A stretch of 64,000 nt of DNA from the human T2T-CHM13v2.0 reference genome, Homo sapiens. The stretch lies in the NCBI RefSeq assembly GCF_009914755.1, contig NC_060943.1; one strand, written 5' to 3'. A program made the translations under genes and the position numbers. This document shows, one piece after another, positions 26,187 through 63,660 of this stretch; position 1 is the first letter of the stretch; each line of letters begins with the position of its first letter. The notes under the pieces were generated by a model. It was not told the origin of the DNA and ran no database searches. It was given only the letters and a program-made list of their open reading frames with translations.

Positions 26187-29162
26187 CTAGAGGGAGAGGG
26201 GTCAGGGTTAGATGGGGAACCCGTGGGTGCCCAGTATAGGATGGCATGGATGGAAAGGAATTTCTGCCTCGGTGTGAGTTCCCGTTCTCCTCTATATGTA
26301 GTAGCTAAGACCTCCCTTCAGTTTGGTGAGAAGGCTGATCCTCCTTTCCCTGTCCCCACTCTCTCTCCCATATCTTCTGCTTCTTCCCTTACCCCCAAGC
26401 TCCATACCCTCCTAATGCCCACACCTCTTACCTTAGGAAAGGCATCCCAGTTGAGGAAAGGAAGTTTCCTTTTGATAGACTAAAAGAAAGAAAGAGAAAG
26501 AGAGTGATGTGTTGCAGGTCAGCCGGGCATGGATGGGTAAGCATTCCCTTAATGAACTCCCACAGTAACCATAGTAACAATAATGTCATTATTTTGTCAT
26601 TACTTTATCAAGAGCTAATATTTCCTGAGGCCTTAGTCTGTGTCTGCCTTGCACGGGCTGCTCTACAAGCATGATTTCAGTGGGTTTTTACAGCAACCTT
26701 TTGTGGTGGGAATTGTCATCATCCCCACATCACAGAGGAAGCGGAGGCCGAGGGAGCTGAAGGCGTTCGCATGAGGCCATGTGAGAAGTCAGTGCAGAGT
26801 CAGGAGACGCGGGCCCCAGCTCTGTCGCTGACTTTGCCTTCTAAGTGCGGGTGGGCCTCAGTTTTTCCATAGAGGATGAGGGGATTCAAATAAAATCTTG
26901 ACCGATTAGCCTCTTCCTCTTCTGCAATTGTCCTTGGGGCCCTGCTCCTCCACCACCATCTTAGGAAAACACGGGTAGCCAGGACTGGCGCCGGGGGAAG
27001 CTTTCTTCCGTTGACAGCCCATTGGGCAGCATCCAGGCAGGACAGTCACTCCCTCCCAGAGATCAGGAACCAACCCATACATTTAAAGCCAAAATGTGTG
27101 GCCACTACCCTGGGATGACTGCAGACAACCGAGGAGGGCAAGGGGCGCCGGAGCACTCACCTCAAAGAGGGCGTGCCAGTTCAGGAACTCATCAGCCTTA
27201 AACGCCTGAGGAGGAAGAGAGACAGCAGAAGCAGGTCAGCTCCAGGGGAGGCCAGAGCTTAGCCCCCAGCCCTCTGGAGAAGGTGAAGGAACCGTGGCAG
27301 CTTTGCAAGCTCTCTACCAAGGCGTTTATCCCCTCTGTGATGAGGGTATTCGTGGGGGTAGCACCAGAGAAGCGTACTCACAGATCGCAATTTGTCGATG
27401 TTCAGGAACGGGGTGTTAAAGGCCTAGGCAGAAACGCAGGGTGTTAGGAAAGTTGCTAAGAAGCAAAAAGAGAGAGAGGACAGACTCGTGGCTGGAGGGC
27501 CGGGGAAAACAGACGGCTTACCTCGGGTCGTGACGCATAATTCTCAATGGTGCTTTCTTCCTGGAAAAGGAGAGGGAGAAAAGGCGGCAGGGGGTCACGT
27601 GATGCCAGGGCCCTTGCCCACATCCCTGTCTGCCAGCTCTGCCTTCATCCACAGCCCAGTCCCCGAAAGAACGCAACCCATTCCCCACCATGGTCTCCGT
27701 TCCAGTCGCGCACATGGTTGGCGGATGTGCAGGGTGAGGAGGGGGAATTGGAGAATGGTACATGTAAGCAGTGTCACCATGGGCAGCAGGCAGAAAGCCT
27801 GGAGCCGAGCATTCCTCTCCGGAAAAGCTAGCTAGTGCTGTCCTGCAGTTGACTTAAGTCTAAGAGGTGGGGTGTTCTGGAGACACCCACGCTCAGTCCG
27901 TATAGCTGGATGGGAAAGATTTGCGAGCAGGTGGGAGCCCAGCTGCTGAGGTGACCCGCCTGCCTCTCACTGATCGAGGTTGCTTTGCTTTGTGGATTTA
28001 TTGCCACCACTGTTGGAGGTTCCATAATCCCCCTCCATGGGGACCCCACCCCAGGCCTCAGTGTGTCCCATCGTGTCTTCCCCATGACAGAGCCCAACAC
28101 GGAGCCCGCAGGCTGGATCCAGATGCTTAGATCTCATAAAAATTTGGTCATTTGTTTTTTGGTTTGAATTAGACATTTTGAATTAGTAAGAATTCATAAA
28201 TTCATCCAGATTTCTAGTTTCCCCTGAAAAATGTAAAACTCTAGGCACATCTTCCCAATCCATGGCGTCAGGTGGGGTGAAAGCTGCCCTTTCAGACTGG
28301 GAAAGTTGGCCCCATTTCACCTCAGGCCCTGACAGCCCCCCCAGCTCAGTGACACCACTGGCTTGGTCCTTAGCAGCTGAGCCTGTGCCCCTGTCTTAGA
28401 CTTTTAAATCCGGAATAGGCATCAGGATTCCTCTCTGGCTGAGGACTGGATGGTAAAGATTCTCACTGTGGCCTATGCTCCAGAGACAGCAGGGAGCCAC
28501 CCGTCACCTGGGCACCACTCCCAGGGGCACAAATGAAGCAAAGAGGAGCTAAGCAGGGGTGTCTCCAGAACACCCCAGCCCCACTCCTCTTTGAGTTAAG
28601 TCAGCTGCAGGCAGAACTAGCTAGTTTTTTGCTTTGCTTCACCCTCTCCACCTGCTGCCCATGTGGATGCAGGCCTGGGTTTGGAGCTGCTCTGCCTCAC
28701 ATTGCCGTTCTCCAGTTCCCCCTCTTCCCCTGCACGTCCCCAGGCATGTGTGCAGCTGGAACGGAATGGGTGAACACTCTTGAGAGCCCATGGTGGAGAT
28801 AGTCTGAACCCAGACCACCCACTCAGTCCCAAGGTTCAGTACACGAGCCTCCCCAACACACTTCACCATCCCTTCCAGAAAGAGGAGCATCTCTGTCCCA
28901 AATGTCTCCCCAGGGATGCTCTGTTCCCTCCTCCCTTCCTCAGAGCCCCAGTTTCTTCAGCCCCCATCAGAATCCAAAACTAAGAGCCACTTATCCAGGA
29001 ATGGACAGGAGGTAGAGAGATGGAGGGGTAGGTGGGTAACACGTATAAGAATAAAAATGCAGGTGACGTGCTCACCTCAGGACCACCCAGGGTGGCTCCC
29101 TGGGCAGAGTGGAGCACCAGGAGGGAGAGGAGCACCACGGCAGGAAGGACCGGGATCTTCAT
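26148..29162 (-). CDS. KRTDAP: Keratinocyte differentiation-associated protein, 99 aa secreted peptide, 6 coding exons
   Basis: Exons 29076-29162, 27522-27560, 27382-27423, 27161-27205, 26432-26479 and 26148-26186 all have canonical AG/GT sites and are phase 0. Spliced product: MKIPVLPAVVLLSLLVLHSAQGATLGGPE/EESTIENYASRPE/AFNTPFLNIDKLRS/AFKADEFLNWHALFE/SIKRKLPFLNWDAFPK/LKGLRSATPDAQ*. Confidence 0.98.
26432..26479 (-). CDS. KRTDAP: KRTDAP exon 5 (48 nt)
   Basis: tag|SIKRKLPFLNWDAFPK|gtaaga. Confidence 0.96.
27161..27205 (-). CDS. KRTDAP: KRTDAP exon 4 (45 nt)
   Basis: cag|AFKADEFLNWHALFE|gtgagt. Confidence 0.96.
27382..27423 (-). CDS. KRTDAP: KRTDAP exon 3 (42 nt)
   Basis: tag|AFNTPFLNIDKLRS|gtgagt. 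Confidence 0.96.
27522..27560 (-). CDS. KRTDAP: KRTDAP exon 2 (39 nt)
   Basis: cag|EESTIENYASRPE|gtaagc. Confidence 0.96.
29076..29162 (-). CDS. KRTDAP: KRTDAP exon 1 (signal peptide)
   Basis: ATG at 29162, 29 codons, donor GTGAGC. Confidence 0.97.
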
Positions 29163-29208
29163 GGCGTCAAGTTTGGGGTGCTCTGAGGCGGGGCCTCAGT
29201 GCTTGCTC

Positions 29209-29270
29209 TTTATATTGCCAAGGAGGCAGATGAGCACAGAAATGGGGTCCCCACCCCACTGACTCACCCC
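29209..29270 (-). promoter_or_regulatory. KRTDAP: KRTDAP core promoter: TATA box, AP-1 site and CACCC boxes
   Basis: TATAAA 29209-29214; TGA(C/G)TCA 29260-29266 flanked by CACCC/KLF-like motifs. Confidence 0.8.
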
Positions 29271-62111: not shown

Positions 62112-62117
62112 TTTATT
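62112..62117 (-). terminator. SBSN: SBSN polyadenylation signal
   Basis: tttatt on the + strand, about 125 nt after the TAA. Confidence 0.88.
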
Positions 62118-62242
62118 CACAAATCCCAGTACAACCCCCTTCAGGGATTTCAGAAACCTGTCCCCCACCCCCAACCCCTCCAGGTCATGTCAGCTGATGT
62201 GACAACGGCGACATTATTCTCCCAGCAAGGCCGGATGCCAGT

Positions 62243-63660
62243 TTAGGGCATGATGTTGGCGACGCTCTGGAAGAGAGAAGGAGAGCAGGGGTGAATGTAG
62301 GGTCCACAGTCATGACGGGACCCGAGACCTCAGCCCCGCCCCTCGGGAGAAGCACAAGGGGACTGGCTGCTCTGGCCCCGGAGTTATGTTCTGGGGAAGT
62401 TTCAGGAAGGTAGCATCTAAACTTAAGAACACAAGGAAGCCAGTCCCCACAGGCAGAGGGGCTGGGGCCTCTGCAGGAACCAACAAGCCTCGTGTGTTTA
62501 GCCTGAGAGGATGCTCTGCCGCCCCCATAGCCTGGGATACACAAGGGTGGGCCTTCCTCCTCCGTGATACACCCTCACCCTGGCCTGCACCAGGTCTCGG
62601 GCAGCAGATACAATAAGTGCAAAAAGAGACTGGGTGCAGTGGCTTACGCCTGTAATCCCAGCACTTTGGGAGGCTGAGGAAGGAGGGGATCACTTGAGAT
62701 CAGGAGTTCGAGACCAGCCTGGCCAATATGGTGAAACCCCTGTCTCTACTAAAAATACAAAAATTAGCTGGGCATGTTGGCGCACACCTGTAATCCCAGC
62801 CACTCAGGAGACTGAGATAGGAGAATCACTTGGACCCAGAAGACGGAGGTTGCAGCGAGCTGAGATTGCACCACTGCACTCCAGCCTGGGAGATAGAGTG
62901 AGACTCCGTCTCAATAAATTAAAATAAAGAAAGAGAGTCAGGAGTTTACTTTGAGCCCCAACTGGGAACCAGGATTCCATAGGAGCCTCTGCACTGGGGT
63001 GACCTTGCACCAGGGAGAGGACAAAGACACAGGCTCCCCCTCCCAGCATGAAGCAAAGGCATTTGCAGGAGGGTTGGGACAGGAGGGAAGCCAGTCAGCA
63101 AATGGGAATCGAGGAATGAGGACAAGGAGAGAGAGGGAATGAGAACAGTCAGCAGCCCCTCCTCCCTCCCTGGCTCCCAGGGGCACCAGGGCCTGGGAGG
63201 TCTTTTCTGCCAGCTTGTGTTTGCCTTGGTGGAAATGAAAGGCACCCAAAAGATGAGGGCAGGGTGCAAAGGGGAGGGAGCAGGTGGAGAGAGGGAAGCC
63301 CAGGACTGGGTATCAGGTTGGAGGTTCTTTGCAGAGGCTGCAGGTCTGCCCGCCCGGGGAGCTGTCCAAACAGACACCGGGAAGGGGTCGGGGTGAGCGT
63401 ATCTATCAGGACGCAGAGCAGAAAAGAGACACCATGGGGCACTCACCCTCCACAGGGCGGGAAGGTTGATGAAAGGCGTGTTGACCGAGGCCTGCAATTC
63501 AAGGACAAGAAGGTCAGTCTCCAGCGTCTGACCCACAGCCATGCTAGGGAACTCCCAGGGGCCTCCTCTCCCCTACCCCAGAGTCCGCGCTTACCCCAGA
63601 GGCTAACGGCGTGGTTGTGGCCCCTCCTTGATGGCTGGAAGATCCGCTTTGATGGTTGCC
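62243..63660 (-). CDS. SBSN: Suprabasin, last three coding exons (5' part lies beyond the window)
   Basis: Exons 63595-63660 [22 protein letters not shown], 63447-63491 [15 protein letters not shown] and 62243-62266 SVANIMP-TAA; canonical splice sites, all phase 0. Confidence 0.95.

What the first reader, a model, noticed from the sequence alone, without database searches (positions are those of the whole stretch)
26432..63491. One donor-anchored 9-residue module repeated in nine phase-0 microexons across three genes
Seen: aligned to their 3' splice donors, the last nine codons read FLNIDKLRS, FLNWHALFE, FLNWDAFPK (KRTDAP); [44 protein letters not shown] (DMKN); and FINLPALWR (SBSN). All nine have hydrophobic residues at positions 1, 2, 4 and 7, six also at position 8, and seven have N at position 3. 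KRTDAP exon 5 and DMKN 44435-44482 are both 48 nt, share 9/16 residues and share 14 identical nt (ggcatcccagttga). NTPF(L/I)N occurs in all three genes. Established: the genes form a co-expressed secreted epidermal cluster. Inference: they share an exon-sized amphipathic helix module (lipid, receptor or sorting motif) whose copy number is set by gene and by splicing (alpha 1, gamma 2, beta 5, KRTDAP 3, SBSN 1 in this window).
Basis: partly seen in the sequence, partly recalled or inferred. Interest (0 to 1): 0.85.

Follow-up and report, generated by a model that had tools for sequence, protein, structure and literature searches.

The report
Shared peptide exon in three skin genes
Three neighbouring human skin genes (KRTDAP, dermokine, suprabasin) carry nine copies of one small, highly conserved coding exon, which gives a single handle for working out what these poorly understood secreted proteins do.

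Summary
Chance is excluded: in leave-one-out scoring, 6 of 8 copies beat all 3,740 null tails.

KRTDAP and dermokine (DMKN) are homologous through these exons (profile-profile E 1.3e-6). Pfam's KRTDAP model PF15200 already marks 63 of 66 non-chimeric dermokines, so that part is implicitly known.

The suprabasin (SBSN) copy is not in Pfam, and standard homology tools do not support it (E 0.009-0.074). It is supported by NTPF(L/I)N: only 116 such sites exist in the 3.1-Gb genome, and three are these exons.

The hydrophobic register is conserved in orthologues, and the module exons are the best-conserved part of dermokine.

The amphipathic-helix reading is not supported. Hydrophobic-moment and periodicity tests are all non-significant.

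The only relevant experiment is that dermokine-delta's Rab5-binding fragment equals the four-module block plus one exon.

Best reading: an old exon-duplicated module, probably a protein-docking unit. Moderately interesting.

The parts
27382..27423 (-). KRTDAP module 1 (K3), 42 nt, AFNTPFLNIDKLRS; NTPF type
   Evidence: Translation and GT donor. Leave-one-out PSSM: 0 of 3,740 nulls as good. Register hydrophobic in 10-11 of 12 KRTDAP representatives; the misses are gaps.
27161..27205 (-). KRTDAP module 2 (K4), 45 nt, AFKADEFLNWHALFE
   Evidence: 0 of 3,740 nulls. F-L-N-W-x-A-L invariant in 12 of 12 representatives. Second-best genome-wide PF15200 hit.
26432..26479 (-). KRTDAP module 3 (K5), 48 nt, SIKRKLPFLNWDAFPK
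   Evidence: 0 of 3,740 nulls. Best genome-wide PF15200 hit, 32.2 bits, E 2.5e-4. Closest copy is DMKN 44435-44482.
44656..44703 (-). DMKN module 1 (D8), 48 nt, [16 protein letters not shown]; its Met starts the delta minimal protein
   Evidence: 2 of 3,740 nulls as good. Mean identity 0.81 over 17 orthologues. Arithmetic with Leclerc 2011.
44435..44482 (-). DMKN module 2 (D9), 48 nt, [16 protein letters not shown]
   Evidence: 0 of 3,740 nulls. Mean identity 0.94, the best-conserved exon of the gene.
41548..41604 (-). DMKN module 3 (D10), 57 nt, [19 protein letters not shown]; divergent copy with Y in place of N
   Evidence: Weak by PSSM, 51 of 3,740 nulls as good. Register conserved in 17-18 of 18 orthologues. 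Appears as an insertion in the KRTDAP-DMKN profile alignment.
40854..40901 (-). DMKN module 4 (D11), 48 nt, [20 protein letters not shown] type
   Evidence: 0 of 3,740 nulls. Mean identity 0.85. One of three NTPF(L/I)N sites in the window.
37434..37481 (-). DMKN module 5 (D15), 48 nt, [19 protein letters not shown]; TAG sits at position 9 directly before a used GT donor; the only copy in the alpha isoform
   Evidence: With an 8-column PSSM, 9 of 4,509 tails score as high, and 8 of those are the real exons. Core invariant in 16-18 of 18 orthologues.
63447..63491 (-). SBSN module, 45 nt, [19 protein letters not shown] type; the only copy in the gene
   Evidence: Scores 18.5 bits on a PSSM trained on KRTDAP+DMKN only, against a null maximum of 10.6 and 0 of 3,740 nulls. 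Exact P 1.1e-7 per position. NTPF(L/I)N rarity. No second copy in the gene. Identical in one monkey suprabasin, P0114. Not reached by PF15200.
40541..40629 (-). DMKN alpha first exon (own signal peptide, frame 3); bypasses modules 1-4
   Evidence: Frame 3 reads ...[27 protein letters not shown].
42022..42165 (-). DMKN gamma terminal exon; ends the protein 8 residues after module 2
   Evidence: Frame 1 reads [12 protein letters not shown]. Stored gamma-type models end 8 residues after module 2.
47479..47514 (-). Possible decayed module exon in a DMKN intron ([12 protein letters not shown] after tttttcag); weak
   Evidence: 9.5 bits in the six-frame scan. Shares 11 nt with D9 and K5; blastn E 0.22; no donor in register.

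Best explanation
The nine exons are paralogous copies of one ancestral symmetric (phase 0-0) exon of about 45 nt.

Each copy encodes a short polar or basic linker, which in 7 of 9 has Pro or Gly within two residues of the core. This is followed by an aromatic/hydrophobic core, hydrophobic-hydrophobic-N-aromatic-x-(A/T/K)-hydrophobic, that runs up to the splice donor.

Shown:
- The copies are homologous between KRTDAP and DMKN.
- Their register is conserved across placental mammals.
- They are the most constrained part of dermokine.
- Every coding exon of the three genes in the window is phase 0-0. Exon skipping, an alternative promoter (alpha), an alternative terminator (gamma) and even read-through into the next gene therefore change copy number without breaking the frame.

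Inferred:
- The exon was duplicated in an ancestral gene of the 19q13 cluster before the genes separated, because the nearest neighbours of several copies lie in another gene. The arrays were then inherited by KRTDAP (3), DMKN (5) and SBSN (1).
- The cores are the interaction-competent elements of otherwise low-complexity secreted proteins. They act as repeated protein-docking or self-packing units whose number tunes avidity.

The partner of the secreted forms is unknown.
For: Homology:
- KRTDAP profile vs DMKN profile: probability 90.7 %, E 1.3e-6, collinear K3-D8, K4-D9, K5-D11.
- A KRTDAP-only HMM lifts 64 of 66 non-chimeric dermokines above the maximum of 1,360 shuffles. The other 2 have no module.
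- PF15200 is precomputed on 67 of 70 dermokine models, 63 of 66 when chimeras are removed.
- Leave-one-gene-out PSSMs find the other genes' copies with 0 of 3,740 nulls as good, except D8 and D10.
- Mean pairwise nucleotide identity over the last 27 nt is 13.7, against 6.8 (sd 2.4) for null pairs.

Protein-level rather than RNA-level constraint: identity among copies is 0.72 at codon position 2, against 0.47 at position 1 and 0.46 at position 3.

Constraint:
- Dermokine module exons show 0.81-0.94 identity over 17 orthologues, against 0.60-0.81 for the other exons.
- Positions 1, 2, 4 and 7 are hydrophobic in 15-18 of 18 dermokines and 10-12 of 12 KRTDAP representatives.

SBSN:
- 18.5 bits, exact P 1.1e-7 per position, about 6e-5 over roughly 600 positions.
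- NTPF(L/I/M)N-coding DNA occurs 116 times in 2 x 3.1 Gb. Three of these are the three exons, all on the gene strand. About 1.3e-4 are expected in SBSN, and Poisson P for three in 37 kb is 5.5e-11.

Cross-gene nearest neighbours: K5-D9, K3-S, K4-D11.

Frame-neutral architecture: 24 of 24 coding parts, isoform copy numbers, in-frame DMKN-KRTDAP chimeric models.

Protein docking: Leclerc 2011 (PMC3053396, passages read) mapped Rab5 binding by yeast two-hybrid, and co-localisation, to Dmkn-delta5 residues 1-76. From the window these residues are 9+16+19+16 module residues plus a 16-residue exon. The totals 137 and 123 also match the paper.
Against: - The SBSN copy is not significant by standard homology tools: hhalign E 0.021 and probability 2.3 % against either profile; BLASTP E 0.074 and 0.009. 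The KRTDAP HMM gives 2.3 bits, below the shuffle maximum of 3.3. PF15200 does not hit it at E<=10. With the nine-residue core alone its corrected P is 0.013-0.47.
- Only primate or unnamed suprabasins could be fetched, 3 proteins in all, so SBSN conservation beyond primates is untested.
- D10 is weak.
- Introns between corresponding copies are not alignable (z -0.4 to 2.0), and no tree could be built from 14 columns. The order of duplications is therefore inferred from similarity only. The collinear profile alignment and the nearest-neighbour table do not pair the copies the same way.
- The docking role rests on one study of an intracellular isoform. The tested fragment also holds a sixteen-residue non-module exon, and the pull-downs used the whole protein.
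- No structure could be predicted.
Confidence: 0.72

Rival explanations
1. Each module is an amphipathic alpha-helix that binds lipid or membrane (lamellar-granule or intercellular lipid), or serves as a sorting signal. Copy number sets the strength of membrane association.
For: - Hydrophobic positions 1, 4 and 7/8 fit an i, i+3, i+7 spacing and are conserved.
- Pro or Gly lies just before the core in 7 of 9 copies, which could cap a helix.
- GFP-tagged delta5-Nt, which holds four modules, sits on large endosome-like structures, while the C-terminal part is diffuse.
- KRTDAP in lamellar granules is recalled by me, not from a call.
Against: - Hydrophobic moment is no better than in shuffles in 9 of 9 cores (p 0.11-0.88) and in 9 of 9 junction-spanning units (p 0.08-0.94).
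- There is no 90-110 degree periodicity in the arrays (p 0.88, 0.68, 0.083).
- L at position 2 and D/K at position 5 fall on the wrong faces.
- Proline lies inside the core in 2 of 9 copies.
- The endosomal localisation is explained in the paper by direct Rab5 binding.
Confidence: 0.18
2. The three proteins are multi-copy precursors. Epidermal proteases cut in the Lys/Arg-rich linkers (KRK, KSK, K at position 9) and release a family of short F-L-N-W-type peptides that act as signals.
For: - Cores are separated by basic linkers, and 5 of 9 cores end in K or R.
- Dermokine is a reported MMP10 substrate.
- KRTDAP fragments covering module 1 are recovered as HLA ligands from psoriatic skin.
Against: - No cleavage data bear on the linkers.
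- No classical dibasic sites flank most copies.
- HLA ligands are processing products of any protein.
- The linkers themselves (xFKxKL) are conserved, which fits a structural unit that spans the junction.
Confidence: 0.08
3. Only KRTDAP and DMKN share the module. The SBSN exon resembles it by chance or convergence, so the family has eight copies in two genes.
For: - All standard homology tests for SBSN are non-significant.
- No N-terminal similarity between SBSN and DMKN: E 0.021-0.04, probability 1.3-2.3 %.
- The SBSN core has L rather than W at position 4 and a proline at position 5.
- Over a whole proteome of about 1e7 positions, one 18.5-bit match is expected by chance (from P 1.1e-7).
Against: - The match sits in the adjacent gene of the same cluster and strand, at the 3' end of a 45-nt phase 0-0 exon next to the C-terminus.
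- About 1.3e-4 NTPF(L/I/M)N sites are expected in the gene.
- 0 of 3,740 donor-anchored nulls and 0 of 78,983 six-frame 12-mers reach its score.
- Its nearest neighbours are K3 and D11, the two other NTPF exons.
Confidence: 0.15
4. The similarity is an RNA-level by-product: short exons need splicing enhancers and a donor consensus, and these shape the last codons.
For: Position 9 is an xAG or xGG codon in 8 of 9 modules, as in 12 of 13 other exons of these genes.
Against: - Identity among copies peaks at codon position 2 (0.72, against 0.47 and 0.46), the position that sets hydrophobic class.
- Synonymous codons differ between copies.
- The 12 non-module exons scored (of the 13) share the donor consensus but score -16.5 to 1.1 bits on the module PSSM.
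Confidence: 0.03

Closest known systems
Pfam PF15200 'KRTDAP' (keratinocyte differentiation-associated), 77 positions
   Same: Covers all three KRTDAP modules (P0078: 144.5 bits, positions 1-77). It hits dermokine exactly on modules 1-2 (P0002 residues 343-367). It is precomputed on 63 of 66 non-chimeric dermokines.
   Different: It is modelled as one domain, not as a repeat of an exon-sized unit. In the local copy it scores dermokines 16.5-23 bits, below its 27-bit cut-off, in the 5 non-chimeric ones tested. It does not reach suprabasin at E<=10.
Exon-encoded tandem amphipathic repeats of exchangeable apolipoproteins (11/22-mers); recalled, not tested here
   Same: Short repeats that multiplied by internal duplication in a cluster of secreted-protein genes.
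   Different: Apolipoprotein repeats have a strong helical hydrophobic moment and lie within large exons. These modules show no significant moment or periodicity, and each is one separate exon.
Secreted-protein gene clusters built of symmetric phase-0 exons, such as the SCPP genes; recalled, not tested here
   Same: All exons are phase 0-0 (24 of 24 coding parts in the window). This allows duplication, skipping and many isoforms; the annotation lists 56 RefSeq transcripts for DMKN.
   Different: A different chromosome, tissue and sequence family, with no sequence relation claimed.
Pfam PF21009 'SBSN_GxHH_rpt', the other internal repeat of suprabasin
   Same: Shows that suprabasin also grew by internal repetition (P0113: 76.9 bits; repeats visible).
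   Different: It lies within the large first exon, is Gly/Ala/His-rich, and is unrelated to the module. It did not hit dermokine at E<=1 in 6 models scanned.

Membership tests
Pfam PF15200 (KRTDAP domain) | Whole-protein score at or above the curated cut-off of 27 bits: KRTDAP | tested here: met
   P0078 144.5 bits; P0087 78.2 bits.
Pfam PF15200 (KRTDAP domain) | Whole-protein score at or above 27 bits: dermokine | tested here: inconclusive
   Local model v11: 16.5-23 bits in 5 of 5 non-chimeric dermokines scanned, all below cut-off. The database's precomputed v13 annotation lists it on 63 of 66 non-chimeric models. Independent hhalign E 1.3e-6.
Pfam PF15200 (KRTDAP domain) | Whole-protein score at or above 27 bits: suprabasin | tested here: not met
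   No PF15200 row at E<=10 for P0113 or P0114.
Module family proposed here (nine exons) | Symmetric phase 0-0 exon of 42-57 nt ending in the core directly before GT | tested here: met
   9 of 9.
Module family proposed here (nine exons) | Core scores above donor-anchored null tails when left out of the model | tested here: met
   0 of 3,740 nulls for 6 of 8 copies; 2 of 3,740 for D8; 51 of 3,740 for D10. For D15, 1 non-exon tail of 4,509 scores as high.
Module family proposed here (nine exons) | Register conserved in orthologues | tested here: inconclusive
   Met for DMKN (18 sequences) and KRTDAP (12). For SBSN only one monkey sequence with the spliced exon was obtained, and it is identical.
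Lipid-binding amphipathic alpha-helix | Hydrophobic moment or helical periodicity above shuffled sequence | tested here: not met
   p 0.11-0.88; p 0.08-0.94; arrays p 0.88, 0.68, 0.083.
Lipid-binding amphipathic alpha-helix | Helical conformation, free or lipid-bound | not testable with these tools
No related solved structure; best PDB E 0.053.
Microexon (strict sense, up to about 30 nt; definition recalled) | Exon length | tested here: not met
   Sizes are 42, 45, 45, 48 (five exons) and 57 nt.
SSC cluster (stratified epithelium secreted peptides complex) | Adjacent genes, same orientation, co-expressed secreted epidermal products | tested here: met
   Adjacency and strand come from the annotation. 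Co-expression and the cluster name come from papers: PMC13460826 (passages) and PMC7831088 (passages). Expression was not tested here.

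The most novel reading that the evidence does not exclude
All three proteins of the cluster present the same docking motif to one shared, still unidentified partner: a receptor, a lamellar-granule sorting factor or an extracellular scaffold. Copy number (1 in alpha and SBSN, 2 in gamma, 3 in KRTDAP, 5 in beta) would set avidity. 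This would make the cluster a single functional system. It would explain why dermokine knockout lowers suprabasin and KRTDAP abundance and why loss of single isoforms is partly compensated. Rab5 binding by the intracellular delta isoform would be the same surface used on a cytosolic target.
Probability: 0.2. Interest if true: 0.7.

Novelty: new member of a known kind. Interest (0 to 1): 0.45.

Why it matters
KRTDAP, dermokine and suprabasin are abundant secreted products of differentiating keratinocytes, and their molecular functions are still unknown. The 2021 suprabasin review says no paralogues are defined and that the C-terminus is of unknown function. The dermokine-delta paper says the protein resembles no known protein.

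One constrained exon-sized unit shared by all three gives a single testable handle. Possible experiments are synthetic tandem modules as bait, W/F-to-A mutants, and isoforms with defined copy number. It also suggests redundancy that single-gene knockouts would miss.

There is a practical point for immunology. NTPFLNID from KRTDAP is reported as a lesion-specific HLA ligand in psoriasis. Near-identical NTPF(L/I)N stretches exist in dermokine and suprabasin, so peptide attribution and cross-reactivity should be checked.

The KRTDAP-dermokine link itself is already implicit in Pfam. What is added here is the repeat anatomy, the suprabasin copy and the link to the Rab5-binding fragment.

Tried and rejected
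Complex prediction of two KRTDAP copies was not available. No structural evidence is offered either way.
- Suprabasin orthologues: the 22-residue exon was too short as a query, and a 40-residue window stretch needed an E limit above the allowed 10. A two-row alignment of the window's open frames through both SBSN exons returned only 3 proteins: one unnamed, one chimpanzee intron-retaining model and one monkey isoform. All three protein searches were then spent.
- The exhaustive KRTDAP-profile search of 1.84 billion representatives gave 37 hits at E<=0.001. All were KRTDAP, KRTDAP-dermokine chimeras or fragments. There was no suprabasin, no dermokine alone and no other family. A single module cannot reach significance at that database size, so this is weak evidence of absence.
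- Own genome, alignment query: not accepted.
- Own genome, PF15200: 8 matches at E<=10 among 22 candidates. K5 and K4 rank first; the other six have E 1.0-7.1, and 4 of those 6 have internal stops.
- Own genome, protein P0093: 5 matches among 10 candidates. Four are D11, K4, D9 and D10 at E 0.5-1.1, and one lies elsewhere at E 9.9. True exons themselves score only E 0.3-1.1, so the power to find lone copies elsewhere is low.
- Pattern F-x-N-W-x-A plus donor: 97 matches against 230 for the reversed control, and 4 are the known exons. Of the other 93, 30 were fetched; 8 of those 30 have an open 16-codon frame with hydrophobic position 7, and none was pursued. The remaining 63 were read only by eye.
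- A C17 frame (…KFLNLERLRSEYKSSKLLNF…) resembles KRTDAP modules 1-2 joined without an intron: 25-27 bits against a local-shuffle maximum of 24.3. It abuts an Alu poly-A tail, does not extend, and has genome-wide E about 1. Judged probably chance.
- Intron homology between corresponding copies: none. The only strong matches are Alu-sized repeats.
- A tree of module variants is impossible with 14 columns, because the tool needs 20.
- N-terminal similarity between DMKN and SBSN is not significant.
- PDB sequence search: best E 0.053, unrelated proteins. ESM Atlas: only KRTDAP clusters above 0.9.
Only 8.4 kb beyond the window was scanned, with no further copy.
- Literature: ten searches found no held paper describing the shared motif. 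One search was badly framed (any 2 of 4 terms) and says nothing about dermokine. One search failed on term length.
- Matsui 2004, Moffatt 2004 and Park 2002 are not held. Toulza 2006 and Naso 2007 were not looked up. Any of these could contain the observation. No supplementary files were opened.
- The dermokine peptide [11 protein letters not shown] was chosen for targeted proteomics in a preprint but then removed from the analysis, so it gives no protein-level evidence.

Full report
**What is there.** Three KRTDAP exons (27382-27423, 27161-27205, 26432-26479), five DMKN exons (44656-44703, 44435-44482, 41548-41604, 40854-40901, 37434-37481) and one SBSN exon (63447-63491) end in a nine-residue core directly before a GT donor. 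In the last DMKN copy, position 9 is the stop codon TAG, still followed by a used donor. All 24 coding parts of the three genes in the window are phase 0 with lengths divisible by three. The module exons measure 42, 45, 45, 48 (five exons) and 57 nt, so 'microexon' is a loose label. The 14-nt identity, the 9 of 16 shared residues (31 of 48 nt) and NTPF(L/I)N in all three genes are confirmed.

**Is it more than chance?** Yes.
- Among 2,212 minus-strand and 2,297 plus-strand GT-anchored open 9-mers, the hydrophobic 1-2-4-7 pattern with N at position 3 occurs seven times. All seven are real exons, and none lies on the plus strand.
- In leave-one-out scoring of 12-residue donor-anchored tails against 3,740 null tails, six of eight copies are beaten by no null, D8 by 2, and D10 by 51.
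- The terminal copy, tested over eight columns, is matched by one non-exon tail of 4,509.
- The 12 other exons scored from these genes give -16.5 to 1.1 bits.
- A six-frame scan of the whole window finds no further copy. The best non-exon 12-mer scores 13.2 bits, against 17.9-29.9 for the exons.
- Nucleotide identity over the last 27 nt averages 13.7, against 6.8 (sd 2.4) for null pairs. It peaks at codon position 2 (0.72, against 0.47 and 0.46), which points to selection on the protein rather than on RNA signals.

**Homology and what is already known.** The dermokine first exon retrieved 70 mammalian dermokine models. Of these, 67 carry a precomputed Pfam PF15200 'KRTDAP' annotation. After removing four read-through chimeras the count is 63 of 66. 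In the local Pfam copy, the model hits human dermokine on modules 1-2 (residues 343-367) at 23 bits, under its 27-bit cut-off. A KRTDAP-only HMM separates 64 of 66 dermokines from 1,360 shuffles. Profile-profile comparison gives E 1.3e-6, aligning K3-D8, K4-D9 and K5-D11 with D10 as an insertion. So the KRTDAP-dermokine link is real and is already implicit in Pfam, though Pfam models one domain rather than an exon-sized repeat. In the papers I could read, nobody states it:
- the 2021 suprabasin review says paralogues are not defined and the C-terminus is of unknown function (passages);
- the 2011 dermokine-delta paper says the protein resembles no known protein (passages);
- the 2026 dermokine paper mentions no motif (passages).

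The founding papers of 2002-2007 are not held, so priority is open.

**Suprabasin.** This is the weakest and the newest link. Standard tools do not support it:
- hhalign E 0.021 against either profile;
- BLASTP E 0.074 and 0.009, although in both cases the best local alignment is the module;
- 2.3 bits on the KRTDAP HMM, against a shuffle maximum of 3.3;
- no PF15200 hit at E<=10; Pfam files suprabasin only under its GxHH repeat.

What supports it is the ungapped tail.
- A matrix trained on KRTDAP and DMKN alone gives 18.5 bits. No null reaches that among 3,740 donor-anchored tails or 78,983 six-frame 12-mers. The exact P is 1.1e-7 per position.
- The nine-residue core alone is weak (corrected P 0.013-0.47). 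The signal lies in NTPF(L/I)N plus the register, not in the register alone.
- Across the genome, NTPF(L/I/M)N-coding DNA occurs 116 times on both strands (253 for the reversed control). Three of those sites are the three exons, all on the gene strand. About 1.3e-4 are expected in SBSN.
- The position adds weight: the 3' end of a 45-nt phase 0-0 exon next to the C-terminus, in the adjacent gene.

On this basis I put homology of the SBSN copy at about 0.8. The gene holds exactly one copy. Only one spliced non-human suprabasin (a monkey) was obtained, and it is identical. Conservation beyond primates is untested.

**Conservation.**
- In 18 beta-type dermokines, positions 1, 2, 4 and 7 are hydrophobic in 15-18 sequences for every copy.
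- In 12 KRTDAP representatives the figure is 10-12, and the misses are gaps.
- Module exons are the best-conserved part of dermokine: 0.81-0.94 identity to human over 17 orthologues, against 0.60-0.81 for other exons. That set includes several primates, so only the contrast matters.

**History.** The nearest neighbours of several copies lie in another gene (K5-D9, K3-S, K4-D11). The module types had therefore diverged before the genes separated. Intron lengths run in parallel (176 vs 173 nt; 681 vs 646 nt), but the introns no longer align. A tree is not feasible on 14 columns. The order of events is thus inferred only. Searches of the whole genome found nothing convincing outside the cluster, but they have little power for single exons.

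**Copy number.** The alpha promoter exon bypasses four copies, and the gamma terminal exon stops after two. Among 66 dermokine models, copy number is 0, 2, 3, 4 or 5 in 2, 9, 3, 13 and 39 models. Some KRTDAP models lack one or all copies. Because every exon is phase 0-0, even read-through DMKN-KRTDAP models stay in frame.

**Mechanism.** The amphipathic-helix idea is not supported by sequence statistics.
- The hydrophobic moment of the cores is no higher than in shuffles (p 0.11-0.88).
- The same is true of units extended across the exon junction (p 0.08-0.94).
- The arrays show no helical periodicity.
- Two cores contain proline.

The only experiment that bears on the modules is Leclerc 2011. 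There, residues 1-76 of dermokine-delta5 bind Rab5 in yeast two-hybrid and co-localise with it, while residues 77-137 do not. Counting from the Met in exon 44656-44703 gives 9+16+19+16+16 = 76 residues, with totals of 137 and 123 as in the paper. The binding fragment is therefore the four-module block plus one 16-residue exon. I take the modules to be repeated protein-docking or packing units. This step is inferred. It rests on an intracellular isoform and says nothing yet about the partner of the secreted forms.

**Verdict.** This is a real, old, exon-duplicated module. It is partly known through Pfam, and is extended here by its repeat anatomy, a probable suprabasin copy and a link to a mapped binding fragment. 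Its biophysical nature is open.

Noticed in passing
P0031, P0051, P0052, P0070; P0079, P0086, P0090, P0091, P0093: Many database 'dermokine' or KRTDAP models from other mammals are DMKN-KRTDAP read-through chimeras: dermokine exons followed in frame by KRTDAP exons. They may be annotation errors or real conjoined transcripts. The all-phase-0 exon structure makes either possible.
   Followed up: partly
window 47479-47514, minus strand (DMKN intron): An open frame reading [12 protein letters not shown] directly after tttttcag. It shares 11 nt (AACTGGGATGC) with the D9 and K5 exons. It has no donor in register and blastn E is 0.22. It is the fifth and only non-exon match to [FLIM]NW[DKH]A in six frames. 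Possibly a decayed module exon.
   Followed up: partly
L033 (G000:C17:43595303-43595413, + strand): An uninterrupted frame...NKFLNLERLRSEYKSSKLLNFFI, resembles KRTDAP modules 1-2 joined as in mRNA. It scores 25-27 bits against a local-shuffle maximum of 24.3. It lies just after an Alu poly-A tail, does not extend, and has genome-wide E about 1. Probably chance; a retro-copied fragment is not excluded.
   Followed up: partly
window 62949-63572, minus strand: The frame of the SBSN module exon stays open for 208 codons through its donor. Two database proteins (P0112 unnamed, P0113 chimpanzee) are translations of this intron-retaining form.
   Followed up: partly
window 37434-37481, minus strand: The DMKN stop codon TAG is the last codon of a spliced exon and occupies module position 9, where other copies have AAG or GAG. 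The final exon is wholly untranslated. One base separates the stop from the K/E codons of the other copies, which suggests the reading frame once continued.
   Followed up: no
DMKN residues about 100-127 (exon 51767-52192) vs SBSN first exon (L044): The best DMKN-SBSN profile match outside the module pairs [21 protein letters not shown] with suprabasin GxHH-repeat units (HGVNNAAGQVGKEADKLIHHG). E is 0.021-0.04 and probability 1.3-2.3 %, so it is not significant. The spacing of H, G, K/R-E/Q-A and HG is alike.
   Followed up: partly
window introns 40902-41547, 41605-44434, 62267-63446: Introns of DMKN and SBSN share ~300-nt stretches at 79-83 % identity in both orientations. These are Alu-sized repeats, not relics of the exon duplication.
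   Followed up: no
KRTDAP 27382-27423: A 2026 preprint reports NTPFLNID and RPEAFNTPFLNIDK from KRTDAP as lesion-specific HLA ligands in psoriasis. The first six residues of the octamer are identical in dermokine exon 40854-40901, and five of those six in suprabasin, so attribution and cross-reactivity may need care.
   Followed up: no
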